Source: an uncultured Chloroflexia bacterium
GTDB lineage: Bacteria > Chloroflexota > Anaerolineae > CG2-30-64-16
Direction: 5' to 3'
DNA length: 64,000 bases
Assembly: GCA_963810095.1 (NCBI GenBank)
Contig: CAWEMM010000006.1
Span: 1,600,001-1,664,000, forward strand
In this document: positions 48,165-54,770 of the stretch, one piece after another
How the letters are laid out: every line of letters starts with the position of its first letter
Numbering within the stretch: position 1 is the stretch's first letter
Made by a program: the position numbers and the translations under genes
The notes under the pieces: generated by a model
The model's input: only the letters and a program-made list of their open reading frames with translations
What the model was told of the DNA's origin: nothing
The model's database searches: none

Positions 48165-49954
48165 ATGCCGAAGCTTCCTCTTCCTGCGCGGCTGGCCGGT
48201 GTTGCCCTCGTCGTCGCCTTTCTGATCCTGTCTATCCTGTACAGCGTCGTCAATCCCGCGTTCGAGTCGCCGGACGAGATCGGTCATTTCGGTTTCATCC
48301 AACATCTCGTTACCACCCGCTCCCTGCCCGTTCTGCGCCTGGGCGAGCCCGGCGAGGCGCACCAGCCGCCGCTCTACTACGTCGCTGGCGGCGGTCGCCG
48401 CGCTGCCGGCCGACTTTGCAGACGGCACGGGATGGTTTCGGCCCAACCCGAATTTCATGTGGGCGGGTAATGGTGGGTCTGACTTCAACGCCGGTCAGCA
48501 CAGTACCGCCGAAACGTTCCCTTTCAGTGGGCTCGCACTGGCCCTGCACCTGGCGCGCGGCCTGTCGCTGCTCATGGGCCTGGGGACCGTCTTGCTCACC
48601 TTCGTGATCGGTTCGCGGGTGTTCGCCGAGCGCCCCCTGGTGGCCCTGTTGGCGGCCGCGCTGGTGGCGTTTGTCCCACAGTTCCTGTTCGTCAGCGGCT
48701 CGGTTAACAACGACAACCTGGCCGTGTTTCTGGCAACGCTCGCCTTTCTCCAGATGGTCCGGCTGCTGGAGGATCCGCAGCGTGGGGGCCAGTGGCTGTT
48801 GCTGGGCATTATCGTAGCGGCAGGCATCCTCACGAAGATGTCGGGCTTCGTGATCGGGCTGCTGGCCGTGATGCTCCTGATCGTTTCCGCGATCCGGCAG
48901 CGCTCGGTCAAGCTGTTCGGCACGGGCCTGCTTGGCCTTGGCATCCCGGCGGTGCTCCTGGCCGGCTGGTGGTTTGTGCGCAACCAATTTCTCTACGGTG
49001 ACCCACTCGCCTGGGGCCTCTACCGTGAGGTGTTCGCTGCCAATCTCCGCAAGGGCCCGTTGAATGGCACCGACTTGCCCCTGTTCCTGTCCACGCAGTT
49101 CCGCTCCTTTCTCGGGCTGTTCGGCTGGATGAATGTGCCGGCCCCGGTCTGGTTTTATCGCGGCGCCGGTGTGCTGGCCGTCCTGGGGCTCGTGGGCCTG
49201 GCCGTGTACCCGTTTGCGCGCCGGCGCCGGTCGCCCCTGTCACCATTGCAGCGCGATGCACTTGCCGGCATGGTGATCGCAGTCGTCGTGCAGGAGCTCT
49301 ATATCCTCGGCACCATCGTGCGTTGCGATGCCTCCTGCTACCAGGGCCGGTACCTGTTCCCGGCCATCGCCCCACTGATGCTGCTCCTGGCTTTTGGGCT
49401 GCTCGGCCTGGTTCCGCGGCGGGCGGCCGGGTGGGTGACCGCCGGCGTGTCGCTTGTCGCTGGTGGCGGCCGCGCTGTACATGCCGCTGCGTGTGATTGT
49501 TCCCGCCTACGCGACCGCACCGCAGCCGAAGTGGAGCGTGTGGCTGCTGCCGCACAAGAGCGGCGCGACTTTTGGCGACCAGATCCGGCTGGCCGGGTAC
49601 GCGGCACGGGTGGAGCCCGGCGGCGGGGCAGTCAAACTCACGCTGTACTGGGAAGCGTTACGGACGCCGGACTTCAATTACTCGGCCTTTGCCCACCTGC
49701 TCGACGCGGGCGGGCAGGTCGTCGCGCAGCAGGACCGGGCCCCGGGCGAAGACAGGGGATATCCGCCGCAGGCCTGGCTGCCCGAGGATATCGTGATCGA
49801 CGAGCACACGCTGCCGTTGCCGCCCGGGGGCGCGGGAAAGCCGTACAAACTGCGGGTGGGGCTGTACAACTGGCAGAACGGCCAGCAGCTGCCGGTAAGC
49901 CAGGGCGGGCAGCCGGCCGGCACGTTCGTACTGCTCGACTCTCCCGGGAGTTAA
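48165..49954 (+). CDS. GT-C (ArnT/PMT-like, DUF2142-type) membrane glycosyltransferase with a C-terminal extracellular beta domain (frameshifted)
   Basis: PAFESPDEIGH, HQPPLYY, SVNNDNL, QGRYLFP, then a Chloroflexi-type domain LTLYWEAL..YSAFAHLLD..W.PEDIVID..VGLYNW. Confidence 0.85.
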
Positions 49955-50045
49955 GCGCGGCTGACGGGTGTGCCACGGGCCGGCCGGCCCCGGAGTCGGG
50001 AGAACCTTAAAGAAACGAACTTGTGTGGTTCTGAACTTGTCTCCT

Positions 50046-50074
50046 TTGACACGCGCCGAACGTGCACCTATAAT
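50046..50074 (+). promoter_or_regulatory. Perfect consensus sigma70 promoter driving a long leader and micropeptides 1-2
   Basis: TTGACA-N17-TATAAT. Confidence 0.8.
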
Positions 50075-50419
50075 GCACTGGTATTTTTTCCGTGACAACG
50101 CGAGCGGTCCTCATCAACTTCGCCGTCTCTCGCGCTTCACGGCTCCCCTTCACCACAGGAGCGAGGGCAGGGCGCGTGCCTATGCGTTGCTTGTTGCCAT
50201 TACCGGCCATCTTGCGCATAGATAGGGTGCTGCGCGAATCCAAAGCCCGCGCGCCCTGGCTTCCCTCGGCATCGAGTTTGACGTTTCCGTAGGATTGGCC
50301 ACCCGGCGGCCCCGGCCCGGGTGGCCAATCTGCGAGGGAGCGCTCAACCGATTCGTCCGTTTAGTCATCTCTTCCGTCTCAAGCGTGACTGCTTGTCGGA
50401 GTGTCTCGTGGAGGACACC

Positions 50420-50461
50420 ATGGCAAAGACATGCGCGGACGGTGTGATCGGCGGCAACTAA
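50420..50461 (+). CDS. Micropeptide 1, MAKTCADGVIGGN (13 aa)
   Basis: GGAGG 5 nt before the ATG; C-terminal DGVIGGN shared with micropeptide 3. Confidence 0.75.
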   Translation: MAKTCADGVIGGN

Positions 50462-50476
50462 AAGAGGAGGACCGTC

Positions 50477-50581
50477 GTGGCACACCGTATGTGGTTCTTG
50501 GCGACTTGGCTGCTGATGACCGCTGCCACCCTGGGCGTGTTGTTGGCTCCTTGTTTCGATGGAGTTGTAGGCGGCGGCTGA
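50477..50581 (+). CDS. Micropeptide 2, MAHRMWFLATWLLMTAATLGVLLAPCFDGVVGGG (34 aa; hydrophobic leader + motif)
   Basis: AGGAGG 6 nt before the GTG; ends in DGVVGGG. Confidence 0.72.
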   Translation: MAHRMWFLATWLLMTAATLGVLLAPCFDGVVGGG

Positions 50582-50616
50582 GGTTTCGCAAGGCGCTCCC
50601 AACGGTAAGTTGGCTT

Positions 50617-50648
50617 GAGGAAGGGCGGACGCCCGTCCGCCCTTCCTC
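50617..50648 (+). terminator. 14-bp hairpin after micropeptides 1-2 (terminator or attenuator)
   Basis: gaggaagggcggac-gccc-gtccgcccttcctc; weak U-tract. Confidence 0.6.
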
Positions 50649-50690
50649 CGTTCCCGATCATCGCAGTTATCCGTCCCAAAGGTTATCTTC

Positions 50691-51614
50691 ATGGCTTCCC
50701 TTTCCCGCACACTCAGTTCGGACAGCTTCGCCACCTTTGCACGTTTAGTCGGTCTTGTCAGCGCGCTGGCTGCGTTTGTCGCGGTTGCGGCGCCCGGCGA
50801 AACGCCCCGCCGCTTGGCCTGGGTCCTGGGCCTGTTGGGCATAGCTGCGGTCATGCTGATCATTAGCTGGAAGAAGGTGCGCGGCGGCATTGCCGCGTGG
50901 GGCGAGCGGCACGACTGGAACCGGACGTTCACCTACCTCTCACGCCGCTACACGTGGGGCATCGAGCACGTGGGCGTAACGACCGTCGTTCAACCGGACG
51001 GCTCGGCCACCATCACGCGCAAGCCCACCATCATCTCCCGTGGCCTGATCCAGGAAATCGAGCAGACGCTGCACTTCCCCGAGCAAGACCTGCGCCCCGG
51101 GTGGTCTACCCCCCAGGAGTTGAGCTCACACGTGGAGTTCAAAGGCGGCGAAGCAGCGCGGTGCAACCCCAGTGAGATCGAATCGAGCGACGGGCGCTGG
51201 CTGATCAAGGTCCACTTTACGCCGGCACTTGCCGACGGCAAGACCGCGTCCTTCGAGTTGGCAGAGCAGCTTTGGCCAGCGCTGTACGGCGTGGATTTGA
51301 CGCCGAGCGAGCTGGCTCAGCGGACGCCCGACTATATTGCCTGGGTGATCGACAGGCCGATGTTGAAATTGGTGCTCGACGTTTACTTCCCGGGCAACTA
51401 CAACGCCACCTCGCCTGATTTCCAGGTCTTCTTCGCTCCCGTGCTGCGCAAGGCCAAATGGCGGGCCCATGATGCCGAGCGTAAACGCCTGGCCGACGTG
51501 CGCGCGTTCAGGAACGAGCACAACGGCCCCATCCAGCATCTGCAGCTCACGGTCGACTCGCCCATTCCGGGGCTCATCTATCGCCTGGAATGGGGCACGC
51601 TGCGCAGTCATTAA
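50691..51614 (+). CDS. Orphan protein: two N-terminal TM helices + beta-strand-rich C-terminal domain
   Basis: Intact 307-aa ORF. Two hydrophobic helices, then WKKVR, then TVVQPDGSATIT..VHFTPAL..WVIDRPMLKLVLDVYFP..LTVDSPIPGLIYRLEW. Confidence 0.8.
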   Translation: MASLSRTLSSDSFATFARLVGLVSALAAFVAVAAPGETPRRLAWVLGLLGIAAVMLIISWKKVRGGIAAWGERHDWNRTFTYLSRRYTWGIEHVGVTTVVQPDGSATITRKPTIISRGLIQEIEQTLHFPEQDLRPGWSTPQELSSHVEFKGGEAARCNPSEIESSDGRWLIKVHFTPALADGKTASFELAEQLWPALYGVDLTPSELAQRTPDYIAWVIDRPMLKLVLDVYFPGNYNATSPDFQVFFAPVLRKAKWRAHDAERKRLADVRAFRNEHNGPIQHLQLTVDSPIPGLIYRLEWGTLRSH

Positions 51615-51646
51615 ATGCTTTGAACGATTTAATCGACTTAACCCCA

Positions 51647-51676
51647 TTGACAATTTGGTTAAAGTTGGGTTATTAT
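51647..51676 (+). promoter_or_regulatory. Sigma70-type promoter for micropeptide 3
   Basis: TTGACA-N18-TATTAT in an AT-rich patch. Confidence 0.6.
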
Positions 51677-51764
51677 TCCGTCATCACCTTGGTGTGAATC
51701 GCGAGACGGGGGCTGCTCCGTCTCGGTGGCATTTAACCCCATTTGCAGCCGCACGGAGGCGTGG

Positions 51765-51809
51765 ATGAAGACTCGAAAGCAGCGTGATGGCGTCATCGGA
51801 GGAAACTGA
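51765..51809 (+). CDS. Micropeptide 3, MKTRKQRDGVIGGN (14 aa)
   Basis: GGAGG 5 nt before the ATG; own promoter and terminator; DGVIGGN encoded with different synonymous codons from micropeptide 1. Confidence 0.75.
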   Translation: MKTRKQRDGVIGGN

Positions 51810-51823
51810 CGCGGTCACGCAGG

Positions 51824-51859
51824 AAGCAAAAACCGGGCGTTCGCCCGGTTTTTGCTTTT
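51824..51859 (+). terminator. Rho-independent terminator (bidirectional type)
   Basis: aagcaaaaaccgggcg-tt-cgcccggtttttgctttt. Confidence 0.85.
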
Positions 51860-51923
51860 AGAAGCTATCCGAAAATGCACTGGCCGGTCGGAGACCGGCC
51901 AGTGCATTTTCGGATAGCTTCTA
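51859..51923. repeat. 31-bp perfect inverted repeat with a 3-nt loop
   Basis: tagaagctatccgaaaatgcactggccggtc-gga-gaccggccagtgcattttcggatagcttcta. Confidence 0.9.
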
Positions 51924-51977
51924 CGTGCGAGAGATTCATGGCAGGCCAACGCCCGGCCCCGCGTGTAATGCGAACCC

Positions 51978-52688
51978 CTAAAACCCCAGCCCGCGTTCCT
52001 TCAGGCTCACCCAGCGCTGCTGGCCGATGACGAGGTGGTCGAGCACGTCGACGTTGAGCAGCTTGCCGGCCTCGACGATCTGGCGCGTGACGTGGACATC
52101 TTCGGGCGAGGGCGTCGGATCGCCCGACGGGTGGTTGTGGGCGACGATGACGGCGGCGGCATTGAGGCGGATGGCTTCGCGGAACAACTCGCCCACGCGG
52201 ACGACGGCCGAGTTGAGCGAGCCGATGTACACGGTGTGAATCTTGAGCACCCGGTTCTTCGAGTCCATGATGACCGTGCGCAGGTGCTCTTGCTCGAGCG
52301 GGGCCATTTCCATCAGGAGGAGGTTGGCTGCATCCGCCGGGGATTTGACGGTGGGGCGCTCGTGGGGGGCGGCGACCAACAGGCGCCGGCCCAGCTCGAA
52401 CGCGGCCTTGAGCTCGATGGCCTTGACGCGGCCCATGCCCTTGGCTGCGGCCAGCTCTTCGAAGGGCGCCTGGGCCAGGCCGGCCAGCCCGCCGTAGCAG
52501 GTGAGCAGGCGCTGGGCGAGCATGATCACGTTCTCGTCCTTGCTGCCCACCCGGAGGATGATGGCGAGCAGCTCGGCCGTGCTCACCGCCGACGGCCCGT
52601 AGTGCTCGAGCCGTTCGCGCGGGCGCTCGCCCTCCGGCAACTCCTTGATAGTGGGGTAGTACTCGGCGAGGGCTTCGTTGAGAGGCAT
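51978..52688 (-). CDS. radC: RadC / JAB-domain protein
   Basis: [15 protein letters not shown], HhH region, [22 protein letters not shown]. Confidence 0.95.
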
Positions 52689-52697
52689 GAGATTATC

Positions 52698-53009
52698 CTA
52701 GTGCTTGAATCCGATCGTCCTGTCGGGGGCTTGAAAGCCGGTTTCCACCGGCGTGCGAACCTCGCCGTAGCGCTCCTCGTACTTGGATAGGTTCTCCTGC
52801 AGTGCATGTAGCAGCAGCTTGGCGTTGAGCGGCGTCAGCACGACGCGCGCCAGCACCTTCGACGTGGGGTTGCCGGGCAGCAGCCGCGCAAAGTCGATGA
52901 CGATCTCGGACGGCGAGTGGCTGATGATGGCGAAGTTGCTGTAGGTGGCTTCCAGGTCGTTGGGGAGCTCGATGTTGATCTGCGACTGGCCTTGATTGGG
53001 CTGCGCCAT
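52698..53009 (-). CDS. DUF3467 family protein
   Basis: INIELP..ATYSNFAIISHSPSEIVIDFARLLPG..ARVVLTPLNAKLLLHALQENL..YE..YG. Confidence 0.85.
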   Translation of the reverse strand: MAQPNQGQSQINIELPNDLEATYSNFAIISHSPSEIVIDFARLLPGNPTSKVLARVVLTPLNAKLLLHALQENLSKYEERYGEVRTPVETGFQAPDRTIGFKH

Positions 53010-53589: not shown

Positions 53590-53640
53590 AGCATACTGCG
53601 GCCGGGCCCAAAAGTCAAATTAGAATCGAACCCTTGTTCG
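53590..53640 (-). promoter_or_regulatory. ssb promoter with an adjacent LexA (Cheo-type) box
   Basis: TTGACT-N17-TATGCT (53618-53590) and palindrome CGAAC-CCTT-GTTCG (53627-53640). Confidence 0.6.
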
Positions 53641-54770
53641 CTTCCGGCGGCAGTAGTGTGATGGCCGATGGCTCGAGCACGAGCGTCAGCGCCTGGCCGG
53701 CCTGCGGCAATTCGCCCTCTGCCGTCGACATTTCACAGACGAGGCGGACGCCGCCGGCGTGAAGCGTCTCGACCAGGTAGTAGCTGCCGCGAAATGAGGC
53801 CGCCAAGAGCGTTCCCGGAAAGCTGTTTTTCTCCGCCGGCGCTGCACCGGCCAGCCTTGCGGCCTCGGGCCGCACCAGGACGGTGACGGGCTCGCCCGGT
53901 CTGAAGGCGGTCCTCCCATCGCTGGCGAGGACGCTGCCCAGTCCGGTCTCCACTGCGACGCAGCCTGCTGCGTCGGGGGCGCGCTGACTTTCCCGGGGAG
54001 CAGGTTGCGGAAGCCGAGGAACTTGGCCACGTACTCGGACGCGGGCCGGCGGTAGACCTCGGCCGGCGTGCCTTCCTGCTCGATCCAGCCGCCGCGTCCC
54101 TGCTCGGGGCGGGCACGCATGATCAGCACGCGATCGGCCAGCGCGAACGCTTCCTCCTGGTCATGGGTGACGTAGAGCGCGGTGATCCCCACCCGCTTGA
54201 GGATGTCCCGCAACTCGTTCATCAGTTCTTCGCGCAGCGTGCGGTCCAAGGCCCCCAGCGGCTCGTCGAGCATGAGGAGGCGCGGCCGGGGTGCCAGGCT
54301 GCGCGCGAGCGCCACCCGCTGCTGCTCGCCGCCCGACAGCTCGATCACCCGGCGCCGCTCGTAACCACGCAAATTCACGAGGTCGAGCATCTCCCGCACC
54401 CGGTCGTCGATCTGGCCGGGCGACAACTGCTGCATGGCGCGAGCATGCGCAGGCCGAAAGCAACATTCTGAGCGACGTCTTTGTGGGGAAACAGTGCGTA
54501 GTCCTGGAACATAAAGCCGAAGTTGCGCTTGTGCACGGGGATGTGGGACACGTCCTGCCCTTCGAATGTGACCTTGCCGCTGTCGGGCGTCTCCAGCCCC
54601 GCGACGATGCGCAGCAGGGTGGTCTTGCCGCAGCCACTCGGCCCCAACAGGCAGATGATTTCGCCCGGGTCGACGCTGAAGCTGGCCTCTTCGAGCACCG
54701 GCAGGCCGGGGTAGGACTTGGAGACGCCGGCGACGGTGAGCAACGGCGGCGTTGGGGGCACGGGTGGCAT
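53615..54770 (-). CDS. thiQ: ABC transporter ATP-binding subunit (thiamine ABC, ThiQ-like; frameshifted)
   Basis: GPSGCGKTT, FQDYALFPH, LSGGEQQRVALAR, LDEPLGALD, C-terminal TOBE-like region. Confidence 0.85.

What the first reader, a model, noticed from the sequence alone, without database searches (positions are those of the whole stretch)
50046..51923. Candidate new system: three DGV[IV]GG[NG] micropeptides flanking a 2TM/beta-rich protein
Seen: MAKTCADGVIGGN (50420-50461), MAHRMWFLATWLLMTAATLGVLLAPCFDGVVGGG (50477-50581) and MKTRKQRDGVIGGN (51765-51809), all below the ORF-track cutoff. Each has GGAGG 5-6 nt before the start, and the motif sits right before the stop. The motif uses different codons each time (GAC GGT GTG ATC GGC GGC AAC / GAT GGA GTT GTA GGC GGC GGC / GAT GGC GTC ATC GGA GGA AAC), so conservation is at the peptide level. 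They lie in two promoter-to-hairpin units either side of one orphan gene. Inference: the C-terminal heptapeptide is a ligand or substrate of that protein. Options are peptide signalling, a micropeptide antitoxin guarding a 2TM membrane effector (defence), or a modified-peptide precursor. I know of no described system with this motif.
Basis: partly seen in the sequence, partly recalled or inferred. Interest (0 to 1): 0.93.

Follow-up and report, generated by a model that had tools for sequence, protein, structure and literature searches.

The report
Matched micropeptide pair beside death-effector receptor
Three tiny genes whose peptides end in the same Gly-Gly tail sit beside a membrane protein here, and the same pairing recurs in about twenty related bacteria, which points to an undescribed peptide-controlled cell-death or defence switch.

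Summary
All three micro-ORFs are at the stated coordinates. A six-frame scan of the 6.1-Mb genome finds DG[VIL][VIL]GG-x-stop three times, all in this locus.

The 307-aa protein is not an orphan. Its roughly 240-aa C-terminal domain defines an unnamed family of 213 clusters. Most members have a two-helix membrane hairpin. Others carry TIR, caspase, EAD7, EAD1 or a death-like domain.

In 22 of 29 distinct family loci, a short basic peptide lies next to a 33-36-aa signal-peptide-like peptide with the same tail, core x-G-x-[IV]-(A)-G-G. A motif-blind detector finds one such pair in the whole genome, this one. Tails match within a locus but differ between loci, mostly through different codons.

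Best reading (confidence 0.5): the tail is the ligand of a cytoplasmic receptor domain that gates a death or defence output. One peptide form is made inside the cell and one is exported or membrane-displayed.

Binding, export and phenotype are not shown. I found no description in print.

The parts
50046..50074 (+). Sigma-70-type promoter-like site P1 (TTGACA-17-TATAAT)
   Evidence: 12 of 12 consensus matches. Three sites in the region against 0.4 +/- 0.7 in shuffles.
50081..50419 (+). Long structured 5' leader, with a 15-bp hairpin at 50294-50329
   Evidence: Folds at -148.5 kcal/mol, z = -3.2, 0 of 100 shuffles as good. Hairpin located. No Rfam family. One 221-nt contig from an RNA library equals 50226-50446, a weak hint only.
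50420..50461 (+). Short micro-ORF 1: MAKTCADGVIGGN (13 aa), no hydrophobic segment, predicted cytosolic
   Evidence: Read, with GGAGG 5 nt upstream. Counterparts in 20 other loci.
50477..50581 (+). Hydrophobic micro-ORF 2 (34 aa, GTG start): basic N-end, about 20 hydrophobic residues, tail DGVVGGG
   Evidence: Aligned with 12 counterparts in A5. No Pfam or NCBIfam match.
50617..50648 (+). 14-bp GC-rich hairpin between the peptide pair and the protein gene
   Evidence: A hairpin of -19 kcal/mol or stronger occupies this position in 11 of 15 loci examined, followed by a U-run in 5 of them (no shuffle control).
50691..51614 (+). 307-aa protein: two-helix membrane hairpin (about residues 12-60) plus a roughly 240-aa beta-rich C-terminal domain of an unnamed family
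   Evidence: No Pfam match. 213 clusters at E<=1e-3. 32% identity to the same-genus relative. Positive-inside rule places the C-domain in the cytoplasm in 44 of 45 two-helix members.
51647..51676 (+). Promoter-like site P2 (TTGACA-18-TATTAT)
   Evidence: 11 of 12 matches.
51765..51809 (+). Short micro-ORF 3: MKTRKQRDGVIGGN (14 aa), a stand-alone unit
   Evidence: with GGAGG 5 nt upstream. Equivalent downstream copies in G001 (MTCRNGAIGGS) and L041 (MKQMRDGIIGGS).
51826..51859 (+). Intrinsic-terminator-like hairpin plus U-run ending the third unit
   Evidence: Read. It also causes the sub-threshold Rfam matches.

Best explanation
This is a self-contained three-part cassette: two kinds of micropeptide that carry the same short Gly-Gly tail, and a receptor-effector protein.

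The protein's cytoplasmic beta-rich C-domain is the constant part of a family. Its other end is exchangeable and is a membrane hairpin here. In relatives it is TIR, caspase, EAD7, EAD1 or a death-like domain. All of these are output or adaptor modules of bacterial suicide and conflict systems.

I propose that the tail (x-G-x-[IV]-(A)-G-G) is the specific ligand of the C-domain, and that occupancy sets whether the output module is allowed to assemble and act.

- The short basic peptides (ORF 1 and ORF 3) supply the ligand inside the producing cell.
- The signal-peptide-like ORF 2 exports the same tail or displays it on the outer face of the membrane. There it could reach neighbouring cells of a filament.

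Shown: the existence, conservation, linkage, matched diversification and separate transcription-unit layout of the peptides, and the modular architecture and cytoplasmic side of the domain.

Inferred: binding, export or cleavage, the sign of the effect (on or off), and the biological role (phage defence, or developmental or kin-controlled cell death).
For: 1. Linkage.
- By the motif-blind detector, 15 distinct loci (19 of 33 locus records, 109 kb) have a short-plus-hydrophobic pair with matching tails. All are on the gene's strand and none on the opposite strand. The same detector gives 1 pair in 6.1 Mb x 2 strands of the host genome.
- Inspection adds L033, L040, L043, L044, L051 and the two fused forms L052 and L056. 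The total is 22 of 29 distinct loci.

2. Co-occurrence within the genus. The DNA pattern for the motif hits 3 times in G000 and 3 times in G001, all inside the cassette. It gives 0 hits in G002-G009 and G011, which also lack the gene.

3. Matched diversification.
- Tail types include DGV, NGA, DGA, DGS, GGI, DGI, DGAR, EGV, GGV, SAxGGG and SVxGG.
- Short and hydrophobic tails agree at 79 of 88 positions within loci, against 47 +/- 3.2 when pairings are shuffled (0 of 20,000 shuffles reach it). With one locus per type, agreement is 43 of 52 (0 of 20,000).
- 31 of 42 same-residue positions use different codons, so selection acts on the peptide and gene conversion is unlikely.
- Tail types follow receptor clades.

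4. Rosetta-stone fusion. In L052 and L056 the short and hydrophobic peptides form one ORF, with a tail at each end of the hydrophobic helix.

5. Receptor logic.
- Among 59 members scanned: EAD7 13, TIR_2 3, TIR 2, EAD1 2, bDLD1 1.
- Caspase domain in L050 and P0100, TIR_2 in P0074 and P0083, C-terminal EAD7 in P0059, the L035 type, which also has the peptides.
- No invariant Cys, His, Ser or Asp. The conserved residues are Gly, Pro, Arg, Glu, Trp and Tyr, which fits a binding or assembly domain better than an enzyme.

6. Topology. K+R average 2.3 before helix 1, 0.6 in the 8-aa loop and 2.7 after helix 2. This holds in 44 of 45 members. The hydrophobic peptides have basic N-ends and acidic tails.

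7. Expression layout. Strong promoters, SD sites, and a hairpin or terminator between the peptide pair and the protein gene in 11 of 15 loci.

8. Precedent for the logic. PatS (made in the cytoplasm) and PatX (Sec signal peptide, exported, cleaved) share a C-terminal RG(S/T)GR motif and act on HetR in filamentous cyanobacteria (PMC12756182, passages read; PMC7761841, abstract).
Against: - No binding, structure, translation or phenotype data exist. Structure prediction never returned a model.
- 5 of 29 loci show no pair in the DNA available: L047, L049, L050 (the caspase form), L053 and L062. Two more cannot be assessed. The domain can therefore work without the peptides, or they lie elsewhere.
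- Only about half of the hydrophobic peptides (10 of 21 by my reading) have a small-x-small site ([VAT]L[AG]) before the tail. Signal-peptidase release is not general.
- If the tail of ORF 2 faces outward, it cannot reach the cytoplasmic domain of the same cell without release and re-import. No peptide importer or protease is linked.
- In the Aravind group's scheme, EAD7 mainly recruits effectors (PMC7159879, passages read). That would make the domain an effector, not a sensor.
- Loci are related, so the shuffle tests overstate independence.
- Neighbours in the window are housekeeping genes, not a defence island.
Confidence: 0.5

Rival explanations
1. A purely cell-autonomous toxin-antitoxin-like module. 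The membrane protein is a toxin. The short peptides are labile antitoxins that hold its cytoplasmic domain. The hydrophobic peptide is a membrane-tethered antitoxin or co-toxin. There is no intercellular signal.
For: - Small peptides on strong promoters, with an extra stand-alone copy in 3 loci.
- A hairpin that would keep peptide transcripts in excess over the protein.
- Sporadic distribution: 8 of 401 class genomes and 3 of 401 phylum genomes.
- Only 30-32% identity within one genus.
- SpoIISABC is a precedent: a membrane toxin with two small cytosolic antitoxins (PMC4926146, abstract).
Against: - It does not explain why one peptide form has a signal-peptide-like helix with an A-x-A-type site in about half of the loci.
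- It does not explain why the fused forms place tails on both sides of a helix.
- No SpoIISA or other toxin-antitoxin family was hit.
Confidence: 0.2
2. The hydrophobic 33-36-aa peptide is itself the active agent, a holin-like or bacteriocin-like membrane peptide. The protein is its regulator or immunity factor, and the short peptide competes for the same site.
For: - The size and hydrophobicity of ORF 2 resemble small membrane toxins.
- It is the most constant partner.
- EAD7 is said to recruit effectors (PMC7159879, passages read).
Against: - Relatives with TIR or caspase already carry an effector.
- The conserved part of ORF 2 is the tail, not the helix.
- 5 loci lack the peptide.
Confidence: 0.1
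3. The peptides are precursors or tags. The Gly-Gly C-terminus is modified, cyclised or ligated to a target, as in a RiPP-like or ubiquitin/Pup-like pathway, and the family protein is the enzyme or scaffold.
For: - A conserved C-terminal motif next to the stop codon, with an optional extra residue after GG (N, S or G), resembles trimmed Gly-Gly ends. This resemblance is recalled, not tested.
- The precursor-then-hairpin-then-protein layout is typical of RiPP operons.
- C-terminal-motif peptides such as FxSxx-COOH accompany related conflict systems (PMC7159879, passages read).
Against: - No modifying enzyme, E1-like protein, radical-SAM protein or peptidase is conserved beside the cassette. Neighbours differ between loci.
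- The domain has no conserved catalytic-type residues.
- In the fused forms one tail is internal.
- The variable tail residues co-vary like a specificity code.
Confidence: 0.08
4. The micro-ORFs are cis-acting leader or arrest peptides that control transcription or translation of the downstream gene. Their products have no function of their own.
For: - The motif sits at the stop codon.
- Long structured leaders with a hairpin lie upstream.
- The pair usually precedes the gene.
Against: - ORF 3 and its equivalents are followed by a terminator, not a gene.
- The pairs lie downstream of the gene in L044, L065 and L066.
- A terminator often separates the pair from the gene.
- Tails diversify in step within a locus, which a constant ribosome tunnel would not demand.
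Confidence: 0.04

Closest known systems
PatS / PatX / HetN peptides acting on HetR (heterocyst patterning in filamentous cyanobacteria)
   Same: - Several small genes share one short C-terminal motif.
- One form is made in the cytoplasm (PatS) and one has a Sec signal peptide and is exported (PatX).
- The ligand acts on a cytoplasmic protein.
- The host is a multicellular filament.
(PMC12756182, passages read; PMC7761841, abstract.)
   Different: - The motif is RG(S/T)GR, not x-G-x-I-G-G.
- The receptor there is the transcription factor HetR. Here it is an unnamed beta-rich domain fused to a membrane hairpin, TIR, caspase or EAD.
- No PatP-like peptidase is linked.
- No homology of any part was found.
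RRNPP-type and arbitrium peptide signalling (Phr, PapR, AimP-AimR)
   Same: A propeptide of about 35-45 aa with an N-terminal signal sequence and a 5-7-residue mature C-terminal peptide. It is encoded beside its cytoplasmic receptor and diversifies like pherotypes (PMC6458997, abstract; the Phr and PapR details are recalled).
   Different: - No TPR receptor: no Pfam hit at all on the C-domain.
- An additional leaderless cytosolic copy of the peptide.
- The outputs are death-type modules, not transcription.
- The phylum is Chloroflexota.
SpoIISA-SpoIISB-SpoIISC toxin-antitoxin-antitoxin
   Same: A membrane-anchored toxin with a cytoplasmic domain, neutralised by two small paralogous cytosolic proteins encoded beside it (PMC4926146, abstract).
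   Different: - The antitoxins there are 45-56 aa proteins without a hydrophobic form or a shared tail motif (sizes recalled).
- No sequence relation.
- Here one partner is hydrophobic.
EAD-coupled conflict systems of multicellular bacteria, and their FxSxx-COOH peptide-processing adjuncts (Kaur, Burroughs, Iyer, Aravind 2020 and 2021)
   Same: - Relatives of the protein carry EAD7, EAD1, bDLD1, TIR or caspase.
- Those papers describe small, fast-evolving proteins with a conserved C-terminal peptide, proposed to act as a signal or toxin (PMC7159879, passages read).
   Different: - No NTPase core, vWA-MoxR pair, metallopeptidase or radical-SAM gene lies beside the cassette.
- The window's genome has no EAD7.
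- Their peptides are released from longer precursors by a linked peptidase.
- The C-domain is not named in the text I read.
Ligand-gated abortive-infection effectors (CBASS/Pycsar/Thoeris types: a 2TM or TIR output plus a sensor domain)
   Same: The architecture of an exchangeable output module (2TM or TIR) joined to a constant ligand-sensing domain. This comparison is recalled. PADLOC hits of family members fall on TIR-bearing models only.
   Different: - The ligand there is a nucleotide made by a linked cyclase.
- Here no cyclase is linked and the candidate ligand is a gene-encoded peptide.
- No SAVED, CARF or STING model was hit.

Membership tests
RRNPP / arbitrium peptide-receptor systems | Receptor with TPR-type peptide-binding repeats | tested here: not met
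   No Pfam family at E<=1 other than a noise hit on the window protein. No TPR family among 59 relatives.
RRNPP / arbitrium peptide-receptor systems | Propeptide with a signal sequence and a short mature C-terminal peptide | tested here: inconclusive
   All 13 aligned hydrophobic peptides have a basic N-end, a roughly 20-residue hydrophobic core and the tail. A small-x-small cleavage site is present in about 10 of 21 by my reading. No signal-peptide predictor was available.
PatS/PatX-HetR | RG(S/T)GR motif and a HetR receptor | tested here: not met
   The tails are x-G-x-[IV]-(A)-G-G. The protein has no family hit.
SpoIISABC toxin-antitoxin | SpoIISA-family membrane toxin | tested here: not met
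   No Pfam, NCBIfam or PADLOC hit of that kind on the window protein or on 59 relatives.
Double-glycine leader peptides (bacteriocin or quorum-peptide precursors) | Gly-Gly followed by a core peptide, with a linked C39-peptidase ABC exporter | tested here: not met
   A stop codon follows GG or GG-x in 20 of 21 pairs. The ABC genes near the window are a binding-protein-dependent importer type. Other loci show no exporter, but their flanks are short.
EAD-coupled ternary or NTPase conflict systems | An EAD on the protein and a cognate EAD on a core NTPase or vWA-MoxR component | tested here: not met
   The window protein has no EAD and the genome has no EAD7 match (genome 88.5% complete). Relatives do carry EAD7 (13 of 59; P0059).
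FxSxx-COOH-type peptide-processing systems | A linked zincin metallopeptidase, with or without a radical-SAM enzyme | tested here: not met
   None among the neighbours scanned or in the ORF lists of loci.
Known anti-phage defence systems (PADLOC-DB v2) | Match of the constant C-domain to a defence-system model | tested here: not met
   0 families for the window protein. Family members hit only TIR-bearing models, each in 2 of 59 members or fewer.
Rfam RNA families (leader or small RNA) | Match at the gathering score in 49000-53000 | tested here: not met
   The best match scores 30.5 bits against a cut-off of 114, and it lies on the terminator hairpin.

The most novel reading that the evidence does not exclude
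The cassette is a gene-encoded peptide 'password' system for multicellular filamentous bacteria. Each lineage has its own hexa- or heptapeptide tail. The tail is made inside the cell and also exported to neighbours. It is read by a cytoplasmic receptor domain that directly gates a membrane-breaking, NAD-degrading, caspase or death-fold output. Cells of a filament would then live or die according to whether they and their neighbours keep producing the cognate peptide. That would be a peptide-ligand counterpart of nucleotide-gated abortive infection, with pherotype-like specificity.
Probability: 0.3. Interest if true: 0.95.

Novelty: categorically new. Interest (0 to 1): 0.85.

Why it matters
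If the reading holds, this would be the first bacterial suicide or immune effector family gated by a ribosomally made micropeptide, where known examples use a nucleotide or a phage protein.

It would also be the first peptide signalling module described in Chloroflexota.

It gives a name-worthy domain family of 213 clusters, with TIR, caspase, EAD and membrane outputs. It supplies a ready-made, very small ligand set of 6-7 residues with natural specificity variants, which makes the hypothesis directly testable with synthetic peptides.

It shows as well that genes of 8-15 codons, invisible to ordinary annotation, can be found and validated by tail matching alone.

Tried and rejected
**Searches and tests that gave nothing**
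- Rfam scan of 49000-53000: only sub-threshold hits on terminator hairpins.
- Word-indexed homologue search of the protein: only itself.
- Profile of the two genus members over the taxonomic family: two further hits at E about 0.004-0.005 (L005, L006). They cover only the membrane helices and were dropped.
- Motif DNA pattern with a residue after GG, over 400 other class genomes: 20 hits in 19 genomes, against 22 hits of the reversed control by my count. This is background, and the pattern was too narrow because most relatives end at GG. The single hits looked like chance.
- L039 and L064: 56-residue matches at E 2e-4 to 3e-4. Dropped as not family.
- Viral contigs: no relative.
- Profile against PDB sequences: only noise on the membrane helices.
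- PHROGs: nothing relevant.
- Peptides against Pfam and NCBIfam: nothing.
- Exact look-up of 10 hydrophobic peptides: 6 are in the collection, unnamed or 'hypothetical protein'.
- ESM Atlas: only unnamed clusters and no structure.

**Ideas considered and rejected**
- The peptide mimics the protein's own conserved DGSA strand. Rejected: DGSA stays constant while the tails change.
- A CCGTGA motif is shared by the leaders. Rejected: it is present only in G000 and the L035 clade, at different positions.
- The leaders of G000 and G001 are homologous. They are not alignable except for a CCACCCGG hairpin.

**Sequencing runs**
- No run holds half of the stretch or more. Shares were 0.33 or less.
- Contigs of X1 and X2 (one study) are near-identical over parts. 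X5 holds a diverged relative.
- Parts without cover mean nothing.
- The single contig from RNA library X8 does not prove transcription.

**Not available or closed**
- The supplements of PMC7159879 and PMC8195603 were closed. They may list this domain among EAD7-linked modules.

**Limits of the 'not in print' statement.** It rests on searches, and on passages of the two eLife papers.


Full report
**1. The observation**

- 50420-50461 encodes MAKTCADGVIGGN.
- 50477-50581 encodes a 34-aa hydrophobic peptide that starts at GTG and ends DGVVGGG.
- 51765-51809 encodes MKTRKQRDGVIGGN.
- Each has GGAGG 5-6 nt before the start, and the shared residues use different codons.

I laid the whole assembly (6,131,393 bp, 65% G+C) and translated it in six frames. 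DG[VIL][VIL]GG-x-stop occurs three times, all in this 1.4-kb stretch. The looser DG..GG-x-stop occurs eight times.

The window holds two near-consensus sigma-70 sites, at 50046-50074 (12 of 12) and 51647-51676 (11 of 12). Three sites were found in the region against 0.4 +/- 0.7 in shuffles. There is a 14-bp hairpin at 50617-50648 and a hairpin plus U-run at 51826-51859.

**2. The protein is not an orphan**

- Pfam gives nothing for the 307-aa product, and the word-indexed search finds only itself.
- A genome search of 40 relatives found one homologue at 30% identity in a same-genus genome, G001.
- A profile of the two, run against 1.84 billion representatives, found 213 proteins at E<=1e-3 and 146 at E<=1e-10. 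These matches cover the C-terminal 240 residues or so.
- Of the 150 listed, 83 matched my regex for the start of the domain. Of those, 44 have two or more hydrophobic helices before it, 9 have one, 21 have a soluble N-domain and 9 have none.
- Pfam on 59 members gives EAD7 in 13, TIR_2 in 3, TIR in 2, EAD1 in 2 and bDLD1 in 1. Nothing matches the constant domain.
- Further scans show Peptidase_C14 (caspase) in L050 and P0100, TIR_2 in P0074 and P0083, and a C-terminal EAD7 in P0059.
- NCBIfam, PADLOC, PHROGs and PDB sequences give no model for the constant domain.
- Its invariant and near-invariant residues are Gly, Pro, Arg, Glu, Trp and Tyr. None is a typical catalytic residue.
- In 44 of 45 two-helix members, K+R are enriched before helix 1 and after helix 2 and depleted in the 8-residue loop. 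The domain therefore faces the cytoplasm. The soluble TIR and caspase fusions imply the same.

**3. The peptides travel with the gene**

G001 has the same layout on the gene's strand: MCKNNGAIGGS, then a 33-aa hydrophobic peptide ending NGAIGGG, then the gene, then MTCRNGAIGGS with its own promoter-like site and terminator.

I collected further family loci from these sources:
- named genome contigs: 6 loci, all titled as Anaerolineae-type MAGs;
- the class sample: 8 of 401 genomes;
- the phylum sample: 3 of 401 genomes;
- metagenome contigs: 16 loci.

This gives 29 distinct loci. Most carry, next to the gene and on its strand, two adjacent ORFs.
- The first has 8-19 codons: Met, a few mostly basic residues, then a tail such as DGSIGG, DGAIGG, GGIIGG or GGVIGGS.
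- The second follows after 3-25 nt and has 33-36 codons. It has a basic N-end, about 20 hydrophobic residues, often (P)[VA]LA, and the same tail, often with one extra Ala or Gly (DGSIAGG, DGAIAGG, GGIIAGG, GGVIGGG).

In G478, which belongs to another class of the phylum, both copies of the gene have the pair downstream with a different tail: SAQGGG/SAWGGG and SVHGGG/SVWGGN. In L052 and L056 the two ORFs are fused into one, with a tail on each side of the helix.

I wrote a motif-blind detector that asks for the following:
- an SD-preceded, non-hydrophobic ORF of 25 aa or fewer;
- a hydrophobic ORF of 25-60 aa starting within -10 to +130 nt of its end;
- at least 4 of 6 tail residues shared.

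Results of the detector:
- On both strands of the whole host genome it finds one pair, this one.
- On the 33 locus records (109 kb) it finds pairs in 19 records, which are 15 distinct loci. All are on the gene's strand and none is on the other strand.
- Inspection adds L033, L040, L043, L044, L051 and the two fusions.

The totals are:
- 22 of 29 distinct loci carry a pair.
- 5 show no pair in the DNA available: L047, L049, L050, L053 and L062.
- 2 cannot be assessed: L037 has only 323 nt upstream, and L061 is cut.
- The third, stand-alone short ORF occurs only in G000, G001 and L041, which form one clade.

**4. Tails match within a locus and differ between loci**

- Over 22 loci, the first four tail positions agree between the short and the hydrophobic peptide at 79 of 88 positions. 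Shuffled pairings give 47 +/- 3.2, and 0 of 20,000 shuffles reach 79.
- With one locus per tail type (13 loci), agreement is 43 of 52, and again 0 of 20,000 shuffles reach it.
- Of 42 positions with the same residue, 31 use different codons. My regex mis-registered three loci there. The match is therefore kept at the peptide level and is not produced by gene conversion.
- Tail types follow clades of the protein tree (FastTree, midpoint root, descriptive only).
- Loci are related, so these tests overstate independence.

**5. Expression layout**

- Between the hydrophobic ORF and the protein gene there is a hairpin of -19 kcal/mol or stronger in 11 of 15 loci. In 5 of them a U-run follows, as in an intrinsic terminator (no shuffle control).
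- A near-consensus promoter lies 271-455 nt before the short ORF in 8 of 21 upstream regions (no control).
- The leaders carry a hairpin 80-130 nt before the short ORF in 7 of 9 cases examined. In G001 and L058 it is a true terminator.
- The window's leader is strongly structured, z = -3.2, but matches no Rfam family.
- Its role is unexplained.
- One 221-nt contig from a metatranscriptome library equals 50226-50446. This is a weak hint of transcription and no more.

**6. Mechanism**

The domain is constant. Its partner modules are the classic outputs and adaptors of bacterial suicide and conflict systems: a membrane hairpin, TIR, caspase, EAD and a death-like domain. For the EAD scheme see PMC7159879 and PMC8195603 (passages read). 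Such modules act by induced assembly, which is established knowledge for TIR and caspases and is recalled here.

The simplest reading is that the constant domain is a ligand-controlled assembly or regulatory domain, and that the matched peptide tail is its ligand.
- The short peptides have no hydrophobic segment, so they must stay in the cytoplasm, where the domain is.
- The hydrophobic peptide has the charge pattern of an N-in, C-out signal anchor.
- In about half of the loci it has a small-x-small site just before the tail. Its tail is then either released outside or displayed there.

This is the logic of PatS, which is made in the cytoplasm, and PatX, which is Sec-exported and cleaved. Both act on HetR in filamentous cyanobacteria (PMC12756182, passages read; PMC7761841, abstract). 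The hosts here are Chloroflexota of the Anaerolineae type, which are also filamentous (recalled).

Sequence cannot tell whether the ligand holds the effector off or turns it on. Holding it off would make it a labile 'life signal' that is lost when translation is shut down by infection. Turning it on would make it an alarm.

I put 0.5 on the ligand-receptor reading as a whole. The rivals are:
- a purely cell-autonomous antitoxin version: 0.2;
- the hydrophobic peptide as the real toxin: 0.1;
- a precursor or tag pathway: 0.08;
- cis-acting leader peptides: 0.04.

**7. Evidence against, and gaps**

- There is no structure, no co-fold, no binding data and no phenotype.
- Five loci lack the pair, among them the only caspase-fused locus I could read.
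- Signal-peptidase sites are not general.
- No importer or protease is linked.
- The window's neighbours are housekeeping genes: UvrD-like helicase, DeoC, a PMT-type glycosyltransferase, RadC, SSB and an ABC importer. Two other loci sit beside an SNF2 helicase and a DUF4365 protein.
- In the Aravind group's scheme, EAD7 mostly recruits effectors. That fits the rival in which the domain or the peptide is itself the effector.

**8. Comparison and novelty**

No component is homologous to any curated family I could test (section 2). Five literature searches, plus passages of the two eLife papers, found no description of the cassette, the tail or the domain. The supplementary tables of those papers were closed and could list the domain.

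The nearest known systems are analogues and not relatives:
- PatS/PatX-HetR;
- RRNPP and arbitrium peptide systems;
- SpoIISABC;
- FxSxx-COOH peptide adjuncts of conflict systems;
- nucleotide-gated 2TM and TIR effectors.

I rate the cassette categorically new, with the caveat that its function is inferred. Interest is 0.85.

Noticed in passing
window 51860-51922: A perfect inverted repeat with 30-bp arms around a 3-nt centre lies directly after the terminator of the third micro-ORF and before the convergent radC gene. It is unique in the genome. DNA contigs of runs X1 and X5 break at its centre with unlike sequence beyond it (table 7).
   Followed up: partly
window 50081-50419; also L003, L033-L036, L040, L051, L058 upstream regions: A long 5' leader of 250-420 nt lies between a near-consensus promoter and the short ORF. 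A hairpin sits 80-130 nt before the ORF, and in G001 and L058 it is a true terminator. The window's leader folds with z = -3.2 and matches no Rfam family. It may be an attenuator or a separate small RNA.
   Followed up: partly
window 50111-50448 versus 50640-51273: Low-depth contigs from a soil-metagenome run (X5) differ from the window at 1-2 of 151 positions in the leader and first micro-ORF. In the protein gene they differ at 14 of 149, 19 of 188 and 8 of 173 positions (table 8). The protein may diverge much faster than the leader, or the contigs may come from different organisms.
   Followed up: no
13 loci; window 50459-50479: The stop of the short ORF and the start of the hydrophobic ORF are in the same reading frame in 8 of 13 loci (P = 0.035 against one third). 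In the window the spacer would read KRRTV. In L052 and L056 the two ORFs are fused outright. Stop-codon read-through is possible, or the two ORFs split recently.
   Followed up: partly
L033 3757-3966 and 5155-5874; L036 and L037 likewise: Duplicated 3'-end fragments of a glycine-dehydrogenase-like gene (ending ...[23 protein letters not shown]) lie beside the cassette in three loci. They look like the target duplication of an inserted element.
   Followed up: no
window 53615-54770, minus strand: An ABC-transporter ATPase appears split over three overlapping frames: the ABC_tran N-part at 54375-54770, a second piece at 53686-54435, and TOBE_2 at 53615-53953. This is either a frameshifted gene or an assembly error.
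   Followed up: no
L053 about 750-904: A direct repeat overlaps the start of the family gene and reads QASNKQRTVQVKSKQQ twice. This locus lacks the peptide pair, although its sister locus L055 has one.
   Followed up: no
L038 4086-5999; L033 841-1401 (minus strand): Neighbours of two related cassettes are an SNF2/ResIII helicase and a DUF4365 protein. This is a possible defence-island context, unlike the housekeeping neighbours in the window.
   Followed up: partly
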